This document shows, piece by piece, positions 31,612 to 38,570 of a stretch of DNA of 64,000 nucleotides. The stretch lies in NCBI GenBank assembly GCA_050950145.1, contig JBMNHB010000001.1, forward strand, positions 140,266-204,265, given 5' to 3'. The notes under the pieces are model-generated. The model saw only the letters and a program-made list of their open reading frames with translations, was not told the origin of the DNA and ran no database searches. The stretch comes from Candidatus Dojkabacteria bacterium. GTDB taxonomy: Bacteria; Patescibacteriota; Dojkabacteria; SC72. The position numbers and the translations under genes were made by a program. Within the stretch, counting starts at the first letter, position 1. The number at the start of each line of letters is the position of its first letter.

Positions 31612-32259
31612 ATGACAAAGTTTGACATAATAACAATATTTCCTAAAACAATAGAGGAATATATAAATACAGGAATAATAAGAATAGCAAGAGAAAAAGG
31701 TCTTGTTAAAATTAATGTTCATGATCTAAGAAAATGGGCTACTGATAGACACAAAACAGTAGATGATACACCATACGGAGGTGGTCCAGGTATGATAATG
31801 AAGGTAGAGCCAATATACAAAGCTATCCAAGAATTAAAGAAGGAAAACACTTTAGTTGCAATTACAACACCAAAAGGAGAACAACTTAAACAAAAAAAGT
31901 TAGTAGAATTTTCCAAAGAAAAAGACTTACATATGATAATTCTTTGTGGAAGATATGAAGGTTTTGATCAGAGGATACATGATCACTTAGTAGACTATGA
32001 ATTTTCAGTAGGGGAGTATGTTCTCTCTGGAGGAGAGTTACCTGCTTTAGTCTTGGTAGATGGCATAACAAGACTAATTTCAGGAGTATTAGGTAATGAA
32101 TCTTCATTAGAAAATGAATCATTCAATAATGATATGTTAGAATATCCTCAATATACAAAACCAGAAGTATTCAACAAATGGTCTGTTCCAAAAGTACTTT
32201 TATCAGGTAATCATAAAGAGATTGAAAATTTCAGAAAAAAAGGGCAGAAAATGGTATAA
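31612..32259 (+). CDS. trmD: tRNA (guanine37-N1)-methyltransferase
   Basis: FDIITIFP...TPYGGGPGMIMKVEPI matches TrmD (SPOUT fold). Confidence 0.95.
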   Translation: MTKFDIITIFPKTIEEYINTGIIRIAREKGLVKINVHDLRKWATDRHKTVDDTPYGGGPGMIMKVEPIYKAIQELKKENTLVAITTPKGEQLKQKKLVEFSKEKDLHMIILCGRYEGFDQRIHDHLVDYEFSVGEYVLSGGELPALVLVDGITRLISGVLGNESSLENESFNNDMLEYPQYTKPEVFNKWSVPKVLLSGNHKEIENFRKKGQKMV

Positions 32260-32312
32260 TGCTCCATACCTAAAAAGTAGGTATTTCCAGAAAGTATCTT
32301 AATTGTATTTTT

Positions 32313-32786
32313 ATGAATATGAAGAATAATAATAACAAGGTCATAATATCTAAAGATAAGTTTAATGAACTAAAAGAAAAACTTAGGGTTCTAATTAAGA
32401 GAAAGAAAGAGTTAGGTAAGAACCTAGAACAAGCTAGGTTAAGTGATGTAAGTGAGGATACTGATGCAATCAATGCAGTAGTTAATGAGATGCAGCATAT
32501 AGAGCAGGAAATGCTTGAAACAGAAAATACTATATCAAATTCTGAGATATTAAAGAAATCATCTTCTAAGAGTAAGATACAGATAGGATCAGAGGTGAAA
32601 GTGAAAGTAAATGGTAAGACAGTTACATATATAATTGTTTCTGATGTAGAAGCAGATCCACTACAAAACAAAATTTCTGACAGTTCTCCAGTGGGTGAAG
32701 CTTTGATGAAAGCTAAGAAGGGTAGTAAAGTTAAAGTGGAAGTAGGAGATAAAATAGTTGAATATGAGATTTTAGATATCTCCTAA
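32313..32786 (+). CDS. GreA/GreB-family transcription factor, second paralog
   Basis: Same two-domain layout as greA at 26213-26674. The tip motif is ARLSDVSEDTDAINAV and the C-terminal FKBP-like domain reads IGSEVKVKVNGK...VEVGDKIVEYEI. Confidence 0.7.
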   Translation: MNMKNNNNKVIISKDKFNELKEKLRVLIKRKKELGKNLEQARLSDVSEDTDAINAVVNEMQHIEQEMLETENTISNSEILKKSSSKSKIQIGSEVKVKVNGKTVTYIIVSDVEADPLQNKISDSSPVGEALMKAKKGSKVKVEVGDKIVEYEILDIS

Positions 32787-34096
32787 ACAATTATCTCATC
32801 TAAGTCTTCAATCTTTACTCTTTGTTGTTGCATGGTATCTCTATCTCGTACTGTAACAGTTCCATTTTCTAATGTTTCGTAATCAATTGTAATACAGTAA
32901 GGTGTTCCGATTTCATCCTGATATCTGTACCTCTTTCCAATATTACCTCTTCCATCCCATACAACTTTGTAAGAATCAGAAAGTAAATCAAAGACCTCTC
33001 TAGCTTTCTTTACAATATCTTCTTTATTTCCAACAAGTGGGAATATTGCAGCTTTGTATGCAGCAATATCTTTGTGTATTTTTAGTACAGTTCTCATATT
33101 TCCTTCTCCTAGATCTTCTTCCTCATACGCATCAAGAAGTAGATAGAGGAATGTTCTAGTAACACCTCCAGAAGTTTCTACAATATTAGGAATATATTTT
33201 TCGTTTGTAATAGGATCTGTATATGTCAAATCTGTTCCAGAGAACTTCATATGTTGAGTTAAATCATAATCACCTCTCCAGTGTATGCCTTCATTCTCAG
33301 CCCATCCCCATGGAGTTAAATATTCAATATCGTATGCATCTTTAGCATAAAATACTAATTTATCTTTTGGATGTTGATAGAATCTTAGATTGTCGTGTTT
33401 TCTGTAAAGCTCTTTATAGAATTTCATCCTTTCTTCTTTCCAATATTCAAAATATTTTCCCATATCATCAGGGTGTACAAAGAACTGTAAATCCCACTGT
33501 TCAAACTCTCTAGATCTAAAGGTGAATCTTCCAGGAGTCACCTCATTCCTAAAAGCTTTACCAATCTGTGCTATACCAAAAGGAATCTGTTGTCTTGTAC
33601 TATCTACAACATTCTTAAAGTTTAGATATATATTCTGACATGCCTCACCTCTTAGGTATGCTTTTACTTTAGATCCTTCAATTACACCAACCTCAGTTTG
33701 AAAAAGAAGATTATATGATCTTGGTTCAGTAAAATCTTTCTTACCACAATTTGGACATTTCTCTTCAATATCTTCTGGCCTAAATCTTTGGTGACAACCC
33801 TTACATTCAACAACCTCATCACCGAAATGATCTACATGTCCTGATGCTTCCCATACCTTAGGATGTGTAATGATAGTTCCATCAATTCCAACAACATTCT
33901 CTCTCTTATCAACCATATTCTTCCACCAATACCTCTTAAGATTGTTTAACATCTCAACACCTACAGGACCATAGTCATAGAAACCTCCTATACCACCATA
34001 TATTTCAGAGTTTGGATAAATTATTCCTCTTCTTTTACAAAGGGCAACTATATTGTCAAGTGTATTTTTATCTTCCATGGATTTATTATATATCAA
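32783..34096 (-). CDS. glyS: Glycyl-tRNA synthetase, alpha2 archaeal/eukaryotic type
   Basis: 437 aa; class II motifs, N-terminal LCKRRGIIYPNSEIYGGIGGFYDYGPVG and a C-terminal anticodon-binding domain. Confidence 0.9.
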   Translation of the reverse strand: MIYNKSMEDKNTLDNIVALCKRRGIIYPNSEIYGGIGGFYDYGPVGVEMLNNLKRYWWKNMVDKRENVVGIDGTIITHPKVWEASGHVDHFGDEVVECKGCHQRFRPEDIEEKCPNCGKKDFTEPRSYNLLFQTEVGVIEGSKVKAYLRGEACQNIYLNFKNVVDSTRQQIPFGIAQIGKAFRNEVTPGRFTFRSREFEQWDLQFFVHPDDMGKYFEYWKEERMKFYKELYRKHDNLRFYQHPKDKLVFYAKDAYDIEYLTPWGWAENEGIHWRGDYDLTQHMKFSGTDLTYTDPITNEKYIPNIVETSGGVTRTFLYLLLDAYEEEDLGEGNMRTVLKIHKDIAAYKAAIFPLVGNKEDIVKKAREVFDLLSDSYKVVWDGRGNIGKRYRYQDEIGTPYCITIDYETLENGTVTVRDRDTMQQQRVKIEDLDEIIV

Positions 34097-34140
34097 ATAT
34101 TTAACTAAACCAACAAAGGAGTTTAATCTTACTGTAAAGA

Positions 34141-35103
34141 TTAGTATGTTTCTGTAAGTTTTTCATAATCATAGTAGTTAGGAAAGGAAAAGCCTCTCCT
34201 GTCAGTTTTACAGTCATATGAAAGGTAGTGGAGAACCTCGTGTATATATGTTAGTTTATCATATATTTCTTCTTTGTTTAAGAAATGTTTATTTATTCCT
34301 AAAGCTAGAGTGGACAGAGCAGTTATTGCTAAAAGATATGGAAGCGTCTCTTTGTTTGCTTTTGCATATGTTAATGCTCCAGTTACTACCGCAGAGCATG
34401 TGTATACATTATTCATATATTGCCAAAATTTCGTTCTTTGAGTATTAATGTATATATAGCGGTCAGGGTAATTCATTTTACCTGCAACATATATTGGCTG
34501 TATTAAATCTTTGAGTTTTTTCTTAGGGGGCTTGTTCTCGTATTTTTTCTGTACACGATTTAAGGAAAAGGAGATAGTTGTAAGTAACTCAAACATTGAA
34601 GGAATATTGAACTTTTCTTGTAGAATGGCATTCACATCCCTAAAGTTTCCGCTTAGTCCAGCAACCTGCAATTTTTCTAACAACTCTATTGCATTATTAT
34701 ACCCGTTTTTTTCACCATAACCGTTTAAGAATGGTTGTATATTACATTCCCAGTAATGTGTGTTTTTGTTGAAAGCCCTTTCATTCTTTTGAAGGATTGT
34801 TAATGCTAGAGATTCTGTGGTTAATTCATCGAAAAACCATGTACCCATATTTAATATCCTTAAGGCTTCTTTTTCTGCTCCAGATTTCTCTCCTCCCTCT
34901 TCTTTGTTTGGGTTATATTCTCTCTTAATATTGGTAACAGGTATATCAGGATGTTCTCTTTTTAATCTTTCTTTCAGATAATTAGGAAAGTAGTATGGTA
35001 GTGCATCTACAACTCTCTCAACATATCCAGGTTCAAAAAATTCTGGAATACCTTCCTCTCTTTCATATACATATTCATTTTCTGGTGTAATTTCTGTTTC
35101 CAT
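34141..35103 (-). CDS. Hypothetical protein with a C-terminal HExxH motif (tandem paralog A)
   Basis: 320 aa. Conserved acidic N-terminus ENEYVYEREEGIPEFFEPGYVERVV; HEVLH at 34228-34242, followed by a conserved C-terminal tail. Confidence 0.5.
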   Translation of the reverse strand: METEITPENEYVYEREEGIPEFFEPGYVERVVDALPYYFPNYLKERLKREHPDIPVTNIKREYNPNKEEGGEKSGAEKEALRILNMGTWFFDELTTESLALTILQKNERAFNKNTHYWECNIQPFLNGYGEKNGYNNAIELLEKLQVAGLSGNFRDVNAILQEKFNIPSMFELLTTISFSLNRVQKKYENKPPKKKLKDLIQPIYVAGKMNYPDRYIYINTQRTKFWQYMNNVYTCSAVVTGALTYAKANKETLPYLLAITALSTLALGINKHFLNKEEIYDKLTYIHEVLHYLSYDCKTDRRGFSFPNYYDYEKLTETY

Positions 35104-35105
35104 AT

Positions 35106-35882
35106 TTAGTATATTTCTTTTAATTTTTGAAAATCTTTTAAAGTTTCAAATGTAAAACCACTTCTTGGTATATCTTCCTCTCCCTCTATGCTTAAATAGT
35201 GTAATATCTCATGTATGTATATCTCCTTTTTGTAACAATCATCTATTCCTTCCATATCTTGACTAATATACATTTGAATACGATCTTTATTTTTAATTAA
35301 ACAACCCCAGATAACTCTTGTCTCATATTCATTAGAGTCAATCTCTTTATTATTCTTACTTAAATTTTTCCCATACGAATACACGATATCGTATAAGTTA
35401 GGTTGATTTAATCTCTCTAACTTCTCATTTGCATATTTAAAATCTCCGCTCAAAAAAGCAATCTCTAGAATTTCTATCGTCCTCTGGTCATAAATTTTTT
35501 GTAAAGCTTCTAAGTCTTTTTGATATCCAATACTATTCTGTATGTTTTCACCGTTCATTCGTAAAGATGTTAATGCAAGGTGTGTAATTAATATTTCTGC
35601 TAAGTGTCGAGAACCTGCAGATAGGTAGAAGAAATCGTCCTTTTTACTTTCTCTCCTATTATCATAGCGATTCTTTTGTTCTTCGTTAATCTGTTTAAAA
35701 ATATTAGGATCAGTTAAAATCTCTATATCAGGATTTTCTATTTTAAGATAAATTTTAAGTTCTTCTGGAATATATGGGGGAAGCATATTTATAACTCTTT
35801 CAACATATCCAGGTTCAAAAAATTCTGGGACACTTTCGTCTCTTTCATACACATATTCATTTTCTAATGGTATGTTTTCCAT
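35106..35882 (-). CDS. Hypothetical protein with a C-terminal HExxH motif (tandem paralog B)
   Basis: 258 aa. N-terminus ENEYVYERDESVPEFFEPGYVERVI; HEILH at 35199-35213. Lies 2 nt upstream of paralog A. Confidence 0.5.
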   Translation of the reverse strand: MENIPLENEYVYERDESVPEFFEPGYVERVINMLPPYIPEELKIYLKIENPDIEILTDPNIFKQINEEQKNRYDNRRESKKDDFFYLSAGSRHLAEILITHLALTSLRMNGENIQNSIGYQKDLEALQKIYDQRTIEILEIAFLSGDFKYANEKLERLNQPNLYDIVYSYGKNLSKNNKEIDSNEYETRVIWGCLIKNKDRIQMYISQDMEGIDDCYKKEIYIHEILHYLSIEGEEDIPRSGFTFETLKDFQKLKEIY

Positions 35883-35990
35883 TTCAAAATATTTAAGGGC
35901 AGGAAATTAAAACTTTTATCATTATATCAATCTTTTATATTAATATCTATCTTTTCTTTAATCTTTCTAACTATTTTGATATATTAATAT

Positions 35991-36974
35991 ATGCCTAATG
36001 AAAATAATAAATCTGAAATAATTATCCCATCATGGTTGCTTTTTACTGTCTTTGGTATTTGGATATTAGCAATTCCATTATTAATATTTGTATTTACCAA
36101 TAATGAGGTTTCTTCAGCCAAGCCTGAAGTTTTAGGAATAGAGCAAGGACTAGTACGAGAACCAATAATTGTAGGGACTCAGCAAGAAGAAAAGAAACCG
36201 GAATCAACTCCAACAGTAGAAGAAGATATTATAGGAGAGTTAATTGTTGGAGTACCTTTGTATACACTATCAATATGTTACGAAGAGTATTGTCAATATT
36301 TTAATAATGATGATTTTAGAACTTTTTCAACAGGTAGAAGTTTAAATATAGAGAAGTTTAATGATTTCCTAAATACTCGTATTATTCCATTTTTTGAAAA
36401 GAAATATGGAGAGAAAACAATAGTGAAGAATAGTAAGGGAGAGTTTCTTGCAAAGTTAGAAGATGTGGAAATAGTATATTCAACAATCTACGATAAAATT
36501 AACAGTTCATTTATCAGTGGTGTTAAGAATATTAAGATAGATTTGGATTACAAAATATCTCCAGGAACAGATGGAAAATACGCTGAGAAATATATTGAGG
36601 TAGATAACTCACAACAAAGATTATATGTTTGGAATAAAGGAAAGGTAGAAAAGGTCATTCTGCTTTCTGGTCCTGTGTATGGATGGCAGGTATATGGGGT
36701 GTTTCCAATAGTAGATAAAGGAAGGGAACCAATCGCCCCTGGGGGTAAATATATGCCGTATTGGATGGCATTTTACTATAGTAAGAAACAAGATTCATGG
36801 TATGGTTTGCACGGCTTAATATGGAAGTATAGAGATGATGGTAGTAAATGGTTTGAACCAGTATCTAATATTGGTACTAGACAGAGTGCAGGGTGTATTA
36901 GAATGGTTCTTGAAGATGCTAAGTATCTCTATGAAAGATTTGAAAAAGGTGACCTCATTCTAATTCACGAATAG
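35991..36974 (+). CDS. L,D-transpeptidase (YkuD domain) with an N-terminal membrane anchor
   Basis: Catalytic motif HG...NIGTRQSAGCIRMV near the C-terminus. Confidence 0.8.
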   Translation: MPNENNKSEIIIPSWLLFTVFGIWILAIPLLIFVFTNNEVSSAKPEVLGIEQGLVREPIIVGTQQEEKKPESTPTVEEDIIGELIVGVPLYTLSICYEEYCQYFNNDDFRTFSTGRSLNIEKFNDFLNTRIIPFFEKKYGEKTIVKNSKGEFLAKLEDVEIVYSTIYDKINSSFISGVKNIKIDLDYKISPGTDGKYAEKYIEVDNSQQRLYVWNKGKVEKVILLSGPVYGWQVYGVFPIVDKGREPIAPGGKYMPYWMAFYYSKKQDSWYGLHGLIWKYRDDGSKWFEPVSNIGTRQSAGCIRMVLEDAKYLYERFEKGDLILIHE

Positions 36975-36993
36975 GGGCCCAATAATCTTTTTG

Positions 36994-37002
36994 TGATATA
37001 AT
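36994..37002 (+). promoter_or_regulatory. Extended -10 element (TGATATAAT) upstream of lysS
   Basis: A TG dinucleotide plus TATAAT lies 30 nt upstream of the lysS ATG. No clear -35 element. Confidence 0.3.
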
Positions 37003-37031
37003 CAAGAGATTTTAATTCTCATCATATTTGT

Positions 37032-38570
37032 ATGGAAGAAAAGGTAACAAGTGATTTAATTGGTCAAAGAGAAGTTAGACTTCAGAAATTAGCAAAATTA
37101 AAAGAGATAGGAATTAATCCATATCCAAGTAAGTCGTATAAAAAAGATAGTATTGGTGATATTCTTAACGAGTTTGAAAAGTATGATGGAGATGAAACGA
37201 TATTAGTTGGTAGAATAACGGCTTGGAGAGAACATGGGAAATTAGTTTTTGGGGATCTAATGGAACAGTCAGGTACTATCCAATTTATGATACGAAAAGA
37301 CGATTTAGTTGAGGATTTGAAAAAAGGATATCTTGGTTGGGATAAGTTAGAACTTTTAGATCTAGCAGATTTCATAGAAGTATATGGAACTATTGGTAAA
37401 ACTAAGACAGGACAGATTACCATTATGGTTAAAAATATCCGATTACTCTCAAAAGCACTAAGACCAATCCCCAGAGAGTTAGAAAACAAAGATCAGAGAT
37501 TTAGAAGAAGATACTTAGACTTAGTTATTCATCCAGAAAAGATGAGAATGTTTGAAAGAAAAGCTAAATTCTGGCAGGTACAGAGAGATTTCCTAAGAAA
37601 AGAAGGCTTTATGGAAGTTGAAGTCCCAATTATGGAACCAGTTACAGGTGGGGCAGATGCTAAACCATTCATTACACATCATAATGCGTTAGATCAAGAT
37701 TTCTACCTTAGAATTTCAACAGAGTTGTATCAGAAGAGATTAATAGGTGCAGGTTTTGAGAAGATATATACTTTTGGTCCTCATTTTAGAAATGAAGGTA
37801 TGGATGATGAACATCTTCAAGAATTTTATGATATTGAATGGTATTGGGCATATGCTGATTACAGAGATAATATGAAGCTAGTAAGAGAACTATTCTTAGA
37901 GATTGCTAAGAAGGTGTATGGTAAAACAGATTTTGAAACAAGGGGGCATAAATTTGATTTAGCAGATGAGTGGAAGGAGATAGATTATGCAACTTCAATC
38001 AAAGATAATTTTGATATTGATATTTTCAAGGATAGTGATGAAAAGATATTGGATGTGATAAAGAAGAATAATATTGAAATGGGTGGTGAGGTGAATAGGA
38101 ATAGGATGATTGATACACTTTGGAAAGATATTAGGACTAAGATATCAGGACCAGCATTTCTAGTTAATCAACCCAAATTCATTTCTCCTTTAGCTAAATC
38201 ACATGAGGATAATGAAGAATTAACACAGAGATTCCAGGTAATAATAGCAGGAAGTGAATTAGGTAATGGATATTCTGAGATTAATGATCCACAGGATCAA
38301 TTAGAAAGATTCTTAGAACAACAAGAGTTAAGAGAGAGTGGGGATGACGAGGCACATATGTTAGATATAGATTTTGTAGAGATGTTGGAGTATGGTATGC
38401 CACCTGTTAGTGGATATGGTCATAGTGAGAGAATATTCTGGTTTATGGAAGATGTAACTGCAAGAGAGGGTACTTTCTTCCCACAGATGAGAATTGAGAC
38501 AGAGAATATAACAAAAGAGATATATAAAGATAAGGTAAAGTTTGAAGATACAAAGAAGAAAAAGAAGTAG
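37032..38570 (+). CDS. lysS: Lysyl-tRNA synthetase, class II
   Basis: N-terminal OB anticodon-binding domain and class II motifs (FRNEGMD..H..EF..IEWY; GGG..IDR). Confidence 0.95.
   Translation: MEEKVTSDLIGQREVRLQKLAKLKEIGINPYPSKSYKKDSIGDILNEFEKYDGDETILVGRITAWREHGKLVFGDLMEQSGTIQFMIRKDDLVEDLKKGYLGWDKLELLDLADFIEVYGTIGKTKTGQITIMVKNIRLLSKALRPIPRELENKDQRFRRRYLDLVIHPEKMRMFERKAKFWQVQRDFLRKEGFMEVEVPIMEPVTGGADAKPFITHHNALDQDFYLRISTELYQKRLIGAGFEKIYTFGPHFRNEGMDDEHLQEFYDIEWYWAYADYRDNMKLVRELFLEIAKKVYGKTDFETRGHKFDLADEWKEIDYATSIKDNFDIDIFKDSDEKILDVIKKNNIEMGGEVNRNRMIDTLWKDIRTKISGPAFLVNQPKFISPLAKSHEDNEELTQRFQVIIAGSELGNGYSEINDPQDQLERFLEQQELRESGDDEAHMLDIDFVEMLEYGMPPVSGYGHSERIFWFMEDVTAREGTFFPQMRIETENITKEIYKDKVKFEDTKKKKK

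What the first reader, a model, noticed from the sequence alone, without database searches (positions are those of the whole stretch)
34141..35882. Tandem pair of diverged paralogs with a C-terminal HExxH motif and a strikingly conserved acidic N-terminus: an unassigned putative metallopeptidase family
The two adjacent minus-strand genes are separated by 2 nt. Both encode proteins that share a near-identical 35-residue N-terminus, M-E-x-I-x-x-ENEYVYER(E/D)E(G/S)(I/V)PEFFEPGYVERV(V/I). Both also share a C-terminal block, YIHE(V/I)LHYLS...GF(S/T)F...(Y/F)(E/Q)KL.E.Y. The HExxH lies about 30 residues from the end, and the middle 200 residues are highly diverged. Neither protein has a signal peptide or TM segment. 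The motif placement does not match the families I can recall, where HExxH sits earlier in the protein (SprT, ImmA/IrrE, M48). The pair sits upstream of glyS on the same strand and divergent from an L,D-transpeptidase. Conserved termini with a variable core in tandem duplicates is the pattern seen in rapidly diversifying immunity, effector or regulatory proteins. The locus could be a new cytosolic zinc hydrolase family, or an anti-toxin/immunity-like array.
Basis: partly seen in the sequence, partly recalled or inferred. Interest (0 to 1): 0.7.

Follow-up and report, generated by a model that had tools for sequence, protein, structure and literature searches.

The report
Unassigned HExxH hydrolase pair beside glyS
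Two neighbouring genes of a Candidatus Dojkabacteria genome encode old paralogues from a very small, unnamed protein family that probably acts as a zinc-dependent hydrolase; the family is a modest curiosity, not a new kind of system.

Summary
Two minus-strand genes, B (35106-35882, 258 aa) and A (34141-35103, 320 aa), lie 2 nt apart. They are paralogues (BLASTP E 3e-31) sharing a near-identical N-terminus and a C-terminal IHExLHYLS block.

No model in Pfam, NCBIfam, PHROGs or PADLOC matches them, and no PDB sequence does. An exhaustive profile search of 1.84 billion representatives found only 26 clusters. These come from Dojkabacteria, plus a Woesebacteria MAG and a MAG labelled Chloroflexi.

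His-Glu-x-x-His-Tyr is kept in 36 of 37 members. One upstream Glu (A E93, B E96) is kept in all 37.

I read the pair as cytosolic zincin-like metallohydrolases (confidence about 0.5). In this reading, an inference from secondary structure only, the conserved termini build the catalytic module and the variable middle is an inserted helical domain.

The immunity or effector array reading is not supported. The locus is fixed (YkuD, then B where present, A, glyS). Copy number is only one or two, and dN/dS is 0.22.

No conserved third zinc ligand lies downstream of the motif, and activity is untested.

The parts
35106..35882 (-). Gene B, 258 aa: the short paralogue, with no insert before the HExxH helix
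   Evidence: ORF. Orthologues P0002-P0005 and P0022 are 34-61% identical. AF2 model pLDDT 86.5, pTM 0.85.
34141..35103 (-). Gene A, 320 aa: the long paralogue. It is identical to P0007, an NCBI 'hypothetical protein ACOX0R_00940' from Candidatus Dojkabacteria
   Evidence: AF2 model pLDDT 76.8, pTM 0.78.
35104..35105 (-). 2-nt spacer between B's stop and A's start (TAA-AT-ATG). The spacing suggests translational coupling
   Evidence: The same 2-nt spacing occurs in L005 and L017.
35718..35831 (-). B N-terminal conserved block, residues 18-55 (VPEFFEPGYVERVINMLPPYIPEELKIYLKIENPDIEI)
   Evidence: pLDDT 94-98, with two short helices and a strand at 54-56.
34936..35049 (-). A N-terminal conserved block, residues 19-56 (IPEFFEPGYVERVVDALPYYFPNYLKERLKREHPDIPV)
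   Evidence: Pairwise identity among A-type orthologues is 0.82-0.88 here, against 0.02-0.45 in most of the protein. Synonymous sites vary, so the constraint is on the protein. dN/dS is 0.08.
35595..35597 (-). Codon of B Glu96, an invariant Glu in the G...L.E helix and a candidate third metal ligand or catalytic residue
   Evidence: Kept in 37 of 37 members. Position read.
34825..34827 (-). Codon of A Glu93, the same invariant Glu
35199..35213 (-). B HEILH motif (residues 224-228), near the end of helix 215-230
34228..34242 (-). A HEVLH motif (residues 288-292), near the end of the long helix 254-294
34279..34440 (-). A-specific helical hairpin insert (residues about 222-275) between the beta-hairpin and the HExxH turns. 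It is moderately hydrophobic
   Evidence: Kyte-Doolittle 19-residue maximum 1.45. Helices 222-247 and 254-294. The insert is absent in the B type and polar in the 291-293-aa A type.
35921..35949 (-). Promoter-like site (TAGATA-17-TATAAT with an upstream TG) in the 108-nt divergent spacer upstream of B
   Evidence: This is a consensus match only.
32783..34078 (-). glyS (dimeric glycine--tRNA ligase), lying 62 nt downstream of A with no terminator-like site between them. It is probably co-transcribed with B and A
   Evidence: The same order is found in all Dojkabacteria-type loci.

Best explanation
A and B are two old paralogues of a very small, lineage-restricted family of cytosolic HExxH metallohydrolases with a minimal zincin-like catalytic module, most likely peptidases.

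Proposed mechanism:
- The two His of I-H-E-x-L-H-Y-L-S, at the C-terminal end of a helix, hold a zinc ion.
- The motif Glu activates water.
- A beta-hairpin just upstream, together with the short strand of the conserved N-terminal block, forms the small sheet that flanks the cleft.
- The third ligand is either the invariant upstream Glu (A E93, B E96) or the D/E/N residue five positions after the second His.

On this reading, 'conserved termini, variable core' has a structural cause. The two termini together build the catalytic module. The 130-200 residues between them are a faster-evolving inserted helical domain that still carries the invariant Glu. A variable helical hairpin also sits before the active-site helix: absent in B, hydrophobic in A, polar in most A-type orthologues.

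B and A are probably translated together (2-nt spacer), are probably co-transcribed with glyS, and may act as a heteromer.

Shown: the paralogy, the motif conservation, the absence of any family assignment, the fixed locus, the variable copy number and purifying selection.

Inferred: metal binding, catalysis, the split-module architecture (from secondary structure and pLDDT only), the identity of the third ligand, co-transcription and heteromer formation. The substrate is unknown.
For: - Paralogy: E 3e-31.
- Motif conservation: H, E, H and Y are kept in 36 of 37 members. The upstream Glu and three Gly are kept in 37 of 37, across sequences only 16-35% identical. The one exception, P0029, has lost all of H, E and H together.
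- Selection, window against L025: dN/dS is 0.05 in the HExxH block and 0.08 in the N-terminal block, against 0.25-0.28 in the middle.
- Model quality: all five AF2 models of B agree (pLDDT 84-86.5, pTM 0.85). The order of elements is helix, helix, strand 54-56, helical domain, hairpin 193-197/202-206, helix 215-230 carrying HExxH, then a break at Ser231.
- Both paralogues keep the motif in all five tandem loci.
- Operon hints: a promoter-like site lies upstream of B and no terminator-like site lies before glyS.
Against: - No profile-to-sequence link to any peptidase family exists. Two members hit Peptidase_M10 at E 0.023, which is just the motif.
- No invariant E, H or D lies C-terminal to the motif, as the zincin definition requires. 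Position +5 is Asn, Thr or Ser in 13 of 37 members.
- I could not read model coordinates, so the proximity of E93/E96 to the two His is untested.
- AlphaFold may be biased towards a zincin-like arrangement for any HExxH helix.
Confidence: 0.5

Rival explanations
1. The HExxH site binds a metal, but the chemistry is not proteolysis. It could be another hydrolase (amidase, esterase, nuclease) or an oxygenase, as in the HExxH-domain hydroxylases.
For: - There is no conserved downstream third ligand.
- The overall fold has no significant PDB match.
- The large all-helical domain is unlike the usual zincin C-terminal subdomains.
Against: - NCBIfam, which I recall includes an HEXXH-motif-domain model (TIGR04267, from memory), gave no hit even at E up to 10.
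- No RiPP or biosynthetic genes lie nearby.
Confidence: 0.2
2. The family is an accessory factor tied to glycyl-tRNA synthetase or translation, for example a processing, quality-control or regulatory partner of GlyRS. This would explain why it always sits just upstream of glyS in Dojkabacteria. This reading can overlap with the best explanation.
For: - The A-type gene lies 18-130 nt upstream of glyS on the same strand in all 17 Dojkabacteria-type loci examined.
- No terminator-like site lies between them.
- A and glyS share a block of about 90% nucleotide identity with L025, while the flanks are 64-80% identical. This suggests they were exchanged together.
- The A-type N-terminal block is more conserved than the catalytic motif, as a docking surface for a conserved partner would be.
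Against: - The whole neighbourhood (LysRS, YkuD, X, GlyRS, GreA-like, TrmD) is syntenic in these genomes, so adjacency is not specific evidence.
- Distant members from other lineages sit in unrelated contexts without glyS.
Confidence: 0.12
3. This is a non-enzymatic, rapidly diversifying immunity, antitoxin or effector-like array.
For: - A and B orthologues are only 33-61% identical between genomes whose GlyRS is 86-96% identical and whose LysRS is 82-92% identical.
- B is present or absent even among close relatives.
- The insert before the HExxH helix is swapped between forms.
- One distant, motif-less member lies next to a trypsin-like protease, a reverse transcriptase and a GmrSD gene.
Against: - The locus is a fixed housekeeping one, with only one or two copies.
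- No neighbouring gene is conserved with the distant members.
- There are no PADLOC or PHROG hits and no viral contig homologue.
- dN/dS is 0.22 overall, with no block above 0.36.
- The catalytic-type residues are almost invariant.
- The neighbour YkuD diverges just as fast (dN/dS 0.23).
Confidence: 0.06

Closest known systems
Minigluzincins (projannalysin, proabylysin, selecase) and the M48 catalytic cores they model (HtpX, BepA)
   Same: - They share a small sheet plus an HExxH active-site helix in a compact module.
- Some members of the present family carry a hydrophobic helical hairpin next to the catalytic helix, loosely recalling membrane-embedded M48 enzymes.
   Different: - There is no detectable sequence similarity.
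- From general knowledge of these families, they place the third ligand on a 'glutamate helix' after the motif. The present family has no conserved ligand there, and distant members end 17-20 residues after the motif.
- The present family adds a helical domain of about 130-200 residues between the N-terminal block and the hairpin.
Mini-zincins of Pfam PF06262/DUF1025 (Acel_2062, PDB 3e11; TTHA0227, PDB 2ejq)
   Same: [quoted passage not shown]
- The sheet is a minimal three-stranded one (PMC3890501).
- The helix breaks three residues after the second His at a small residue: Gly there, Ser/Thr/Gly/Cys here.
   Different: - Their motif is HEXXHXXGXXD, with Asp at +6 as the ligand. The present family has HExxHYLSx(D/N/E), with the polar residue at +5, and it is Asn, Thr or Ser in 13 of 37 members.
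- They are about 110 aa, against 254-381 aa here.
- There is no Pfam hit.
SprT/Wss1/Spartan-type and ImmA/IrrE-type HExxH proteases
   Different: There are no sequence-profile hits. The motif is placed at the extreme C-terminus. No downstream His or Glu ligand is conserved, and there is no DNA-binding or HTH partner.

Membership tests
Zincin metallopeptidases (MEROPS clan MA, as defined in PMC3890501) | Conserved HEXXH motif on a helix | tested here: met
   H, E and H are kept in 36 of 37 family members. The motif lies near the end of predicted helices 215-230 (B) and 254-294 (A).
Zincin metallopeptidases (MEROPS clan MA, as defined in PMC3890501) | A third zinc ligand (Glu, His or Asp) C-terminal to the motif | tested here: inconclusive
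   No invariant E, H or D lies downstream. Position +5 is D19, E5, N10, T2, S1 of 37. A position 8-11 residues after the second His is Arg in most members and His in six. The only invariant acidic residue is upstream (E93/E96), and its distance to the His pair could not be measured.
Zincin metallopeptidases (MEROPS clan MA, as defined in PMC3890501) | Zincin fold: a mixed beta-sheet of at least 3 strands packed against the active-site helix | tested here: inconclusive
   [not shown]
Zincin metallopeptidases (MEROPS clan MA, as defined in PMC3890501) | Zinc binding and peptidase activity | not testable with these tools
   This needs purified protein, metal analysis and activity assays.
Any curated family (Pfam-A, NCBIfam, PHROGs, PADLOC) or solved structure, by sequence | A profile match at or near the curated threshold | tested here: not met
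   A and B give no Pfam hit at E up to 10. The 37 members give only scattered chance hits. PHROGs and PADLOC give nothing significant. PDB sequence profiles give a best E of 0.21-0.37, to unrelated proteins.
Mini-zincin PF06262/DUF1025 | HEXXHXXGXXD motif in a protein of about 110 aa | tested here: not met
   The motif here is HExxHYLSx(D/N/E). Lengths are 254-381 aa, and there is no Pfam hit.
Polymorphic immunity, antitoxin or effector arrays | Variable multi-copy arrays linked to a toxin or effector partner or to mobile elements | tested here: not met
   There are one or two copies at a single fixed locus between YkuD and glyS. No partner gene is conserved. There is no defence-model hit and no viral homologue.
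Polymorphic immunity, antitoxin or effector arrays | Diversifying (positive) selection | tested here: not met
   Nei-Gojobori dN/dS is 0.22 for A against its closest orthologue, and no block exceeds 0.36. Site-level tests were not possible with the few sequences available.

The most novel reading that the evidence does not exclude
The family may be a topologically unusual zincin. Its catalytic module would be split: an N-terminal block and a C-terminal hairpin plus HExxH helix, separated by an inserted helical domain. Its third metal ligand would be an invariant Glu supplied from upstream of the motif (A E93, B E96), rather than from a downstream helix or turn as in the Glu-, Met- and Asp-zincins. 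It would act as a lineage-specific protease, perhaps an A/B heteromer, expressed together with GlyRS in Dojkabacteria.
Probability: 0.25. Interest if true: 0.55.

Novelty: new variant of a known kind. Interest (0 to 1): 0.36.

Why it matters
If the reading is right, this adds an unrecognised and very rare branch to the HExxH metallohydrolases. Its architecture would be unusual: the motif sits at the extreme C-terminus, no canonical downstream ligand is present, an invariant Glu lies upstream, and the catalytic module is assembled from the two termini.

It would also give Dojkabacteria, which are reduced uncultured CPR bacteria, a lineage-specific cytosolic protease linked to an essential translation gene.

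The practical value is modest. The result provides a seed alignment and testable residues for a new family entry, and it shows that 'conserved ends, variable middle' can have a structural explanation and need not reflect an arms race.

It does not bear on any long-standing open question, and the family's rarity limits its reach.

Tried and rejected
- **Profile libraries.** Pfam, NCBIfam, PHROGs and PADLOC, run on A and B and on all 37 members, gave only chance-level hits.
- **PDB sequence searches.** Profile searches with A4 and A5 matched only TBC1D20 (E 0.21) and a putative DNA-binding protein (E 0.37), which I read as noise.
- **Foldseek against the PDB with the B model.** Nothing was found.
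- **afdb50.** This library was not available.
- **Third word-indexed homologue search, using the wide alignment.** It hit the candidate cap and added only P0029.
- **The search for related loci with A5.** The alignment had no stretch conserved enough to search with.
- **J-domain idea.** I considered it because of 'LKERLKREHPD'. I rejected it because the Asp is not conserved (B has NPD, distant members have HP followed by various residues) and there is no DnaJ Pfam hit.
- **RNA element or T-box leader for glyS.** No Rfam match was found in 32000-37200 at E up to 1. Synonymous sites vary in the conserved N-terminal block.
- **Conserved partner gene near distant members.** None was found.
- **Extra family copies.** None was found elsewhere in the window or in neighbouring ORFs of the other loci.
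- **Literature.** There were no papers on Dojkabacteria plus metallopeptidase, and the search for zincins with a ligand N-terminal to the motif gave nothing useful. The minigluzincin paper PMC3774397 is not held.
Full report
**1. The observation**

The window has about 32% G+C. Gene A's protein is identical to an NCBI entry, 'hypothetical protein ACOX0R_00940, Candidatus Dojkabacteria bacterium', found on a 749-kb contig.

The junction reads TAA-AT-ATG, a 2-nt spacer.

BLASTP aligns the two proteins end to end at 29% identity with E 3e-31. The N-terminal and C-terminal blocks and the position of HExxH are as described: A residues 288-292 and B residues 224-228, which is 28 and 30 residues from the end.

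The downstream gene is the dimeric glycine--tRNA ligase (E 1.4e-170). Its real start is probably the ATG at 34078, which gives 431 aa as in its orthologues. The divergent upstream gene is a YkuD-type L,D-transpeptidase, followed by LysRS.

**2. Family size and spread**

No profile library recognises either protein. Pfam, NCBIfam, PHROGs and PADLOC gave nothing at E up to 10. Nothing appeared when all 37 collected members were scanned. No PDB sequence matches a family profile.

The word-indexed searches of 5.8 billion clusters returned 6 hits for B and 15 for A. An exhaustive HMMER profile search of 1.84 billion 50%-identity representatives found only 26 clusters at E up to 1e-3.

Among 185,579 species-representative genomes, three carry the family. 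Two are labelled Dojkabacteria. The third is labelled Saccharibacteria but has Dojkabacteria-like synteny. Two distant members carry organism labels, one Candidatus Woesebacteria and one Chloroflexi MAG. No viral contig encodes a relative. The metagenome hits come from activated sludge and fermentation samples.

**3. What is conserved**

The 37-sequence alignment includes pairs only 16-35% identical to B. Its invariant positions are one Glu (A E93, B E96, in a G...L.E helix) and three Gly. H, E, H and Y of I-H-E-x-L-H-Y-L-S are each kept in 36 of 37. The single exception, P0029, has lost H, E and H together (TEGVVS).

No conserved Glu, His or Asp follows the motif. Position +5 after the second His is D19, N10, E5, T2, S1 of 37. 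That pattern looks more like a capping or turn residue than an obligatory ligand. Distant members end 17-20 residues after the motif.

Among A-type orthologues the N-terminal block VVDALPYYFPNYLKERLKREHPDIPV is more conserved than the motif block. Pairwise identity is 0.82-0.88 in the N-terminal block, against 0.57-0.66 in the motif block and 0.02-0.45 in most of the rest. In this block, 39% of codons for identical residues differ synonymously between orthologues, so the constraint is on the protein and not on the RNA.

**4. Predicted structure**

The A model is moderate (pLDDT 76.8, pTM 0.78). The B model, built on the 37-sequence alignment, is confident and reproducible: its five models score 84-86.5 pLDDT, with pTM 0.85.

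The order of elements in B is:
- a disordered acidic tip (residues 1-5 or so);
- two short helices and a strand (54-56) in the conserved N-terminal block;
- an all-helical domain (61-178) that carries the invariant Glu and the A.LSGD motif;
- a beta-hairpin (193-197 and 202-206);
- the helix 215-230 with HExxH, which breaks at Ser231;
- a short tail.

In A, a helical hairpin of about 55 residues is inserted between the beta-hairpin and the HExxH turns. This insert is moderately hydrophobic in A (Kyte-Doolittle 1.45). It is clearly hydrophobic in several distant members (up to 2.1), polar in the 291-293-aa A-type orthologues, and absent in the B type.

Two cautions apply:
- Foldseek found nothing significant.
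- I could not read coordinates. The distance from E93/E96 to the His pair is therefore untested, and so is the idea that the N-terminal strand joins the hairpin sheet. Both remain inferences from secondary structure and conservation.

**5. Genomic context and evolution**

In all 17 Dojkabacteria-type loci examined, the order is LysRS and YkuD on one strand, then B (where present), A and GlyRS on the other.

Copy number and gene type:
- Five lineages carry the B+A tandem: the window, L005/L006, L014, L017 and L023. The 2-nt spacing is the same in L005 and L017.
- The other lineages carry only an A-type gene.
- The closest relative of this genome's A (P0008, 86% identical, locus L025) has no B at all.
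- The A and B types each have their own orthologues, so the duplication is old and B has been lost repeatedly.

Distant members are single genes in unrelated contexts with no shared neighbour.

The family evolves much faster than its housekeeping neighbours. The table gives amino-acid identity between this window and related Dojkabacteria loci.

| Protein | Identity to orthologues |
|---|---|
| A | 33-56% |
| B | 34-61% |
| GlyRS | 86-96% |
| LysRS | 82-92% |
| YkuD | 55-74% |

Selection is nevertheless purifying. The values below compare the window with L025.

| Gene or block | dN/dS |
|---|---|
| A, whole gene | 0.22 |
| A, N-terminal block (19-57) | 0.08 |
| A, HExxH block (284-320) | 0.05 |
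| A, middle (58-283) | 0.25-0.28 |
| YkuD | 0.23 |
| GlyRS | 0.03 |

Two signs of recombination appeared:
- Against L025, A and glyS are about 90% identical in nucleotides, while LysRS is 80%, YkuD 77% and the GreA-like gene 64%. The A-glyS block therefore looks like an exchanged segment.
- Within this genome, the first 36 or so codons of A and B share more synonymous codons than the rest of the genes (20 of 25 against 36 of 68, p = 0.015). This is not seen in L005 or L014.

A promoter-like site lies upstream of B, and no terminator-like site lies before glyS. No Rfam element is present in 32000-37200.

**6. Interpretation**

The best-supported reading is a pair of cytosolic zincin-like HExxH metallohydrolases, probably peptidases (confidence about 0.5). 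The conserved termini form the catalytic module, and the variable middle is an inserted helical domain. Third-ligand candidates are E93/E96 (upstream) and the +5 D/E/N residue.

The rivals, in order of confidence, are:
- a metal site with non-peptidase chemistry (0.2);
- a GlyRS-linked accessory role (0.12), which rests on adjacency that is not specific because the whole neighbourhood is syntenic;
- an immunity or effector array (0.06), which conflicts with the fixed locus, the one-or-two copy number, the lack of a partner gene and purifying selection.

**7. Comparison with known families, and verdict**

The closest known families are the minigluzincin/M48 cores, the DUF1025 mini-zincins and the SprT/Wss1 proteases. 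The resemblance is in the motif and in a weak fold similarity only. No family-level membership test is met. The zincin requirement for a ligand C-terminal to the motif (PMC3890501) is not clearly met either.

I therefore file this as a new variant of a known kind. It is real, unassigned and somewhat unusual in architecture, but it is very rare, untested, and has no bearing on a major open question. Interest is 0.36.

Noticed in passing
window 34078-34096 (minus strand): The mechanical ORF for glyS starts at TTG 34096 (437 aa). Its orthologues are 431 aa, and an ATG at 34078 (MEDKNTLDN...) fits that length. The real start is therefore probably 34078, which leaves a 62-nt A-glyS spacer.
   Followed up: partly
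window 32313-32786 (+): A 157-aa GreA-like gene scores below the NCBIfam GreA cut-off (96 against 145 bits). Most of its orthologues hit only the C-terminal GreA_GreB Pfam domain, while a second, complete GreA lies a few kb away in related loci. The gene is also very divergent between close relatives (54% amino-acid identity against L025). Its stop overlaps the convergent glyS stop by 4 nt.
   Followed up: partly
L007 6001-6936 (P0029): A distant family member has lost the whole HExxH motif (TEGVVS) but keeps the invariant upstream Glu. It sits 56 nt after a 977-aa trypsin-domain gene, with reverse-transcriptase (RVT_1) and GmrSD_N genes nearby. It may be a pseudo-enzyme in a defence-like or mobile neighbourhood.
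   Followed up: partly
window 32783-35103 compared with L025 8001-10327: The region is a mosaic. A and glyS are about 90% identical in nucleotides to L025, while the flanking LysRS (80%), YkuD (77%, only half alignable) and GreA-like gene (64%) are much more diverged. dS is 0.31 for A, against 1.45-1.63 for LysRS and YkuD. This suggests recombination between Dojkabacteria lineages across this block.
   Followed up: partly
window 35991-36974 (+): The YkuD L,D-transpeptidase gene evolves about as fast as A and B (55-74% amino-acid identity between genomes whose aaRS genes are 82-96% identical; dN/dS 0.23). It gives no NCBIfam hit. The whole YkuD-B-A stretch is therefore a fast-evolving pocket between conserved aaRS genes.
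   Followed up: no
L025 7877-8000: The closest relative of this genome's A gene has only a 124-nt spacer where B sits in the window. B is therefore present or absent even between close relatives. The blastn comparison aligned only about 10% of B's length to L025; I made no dedicated search of the spacer for a B remnant.
   Followed up: partly
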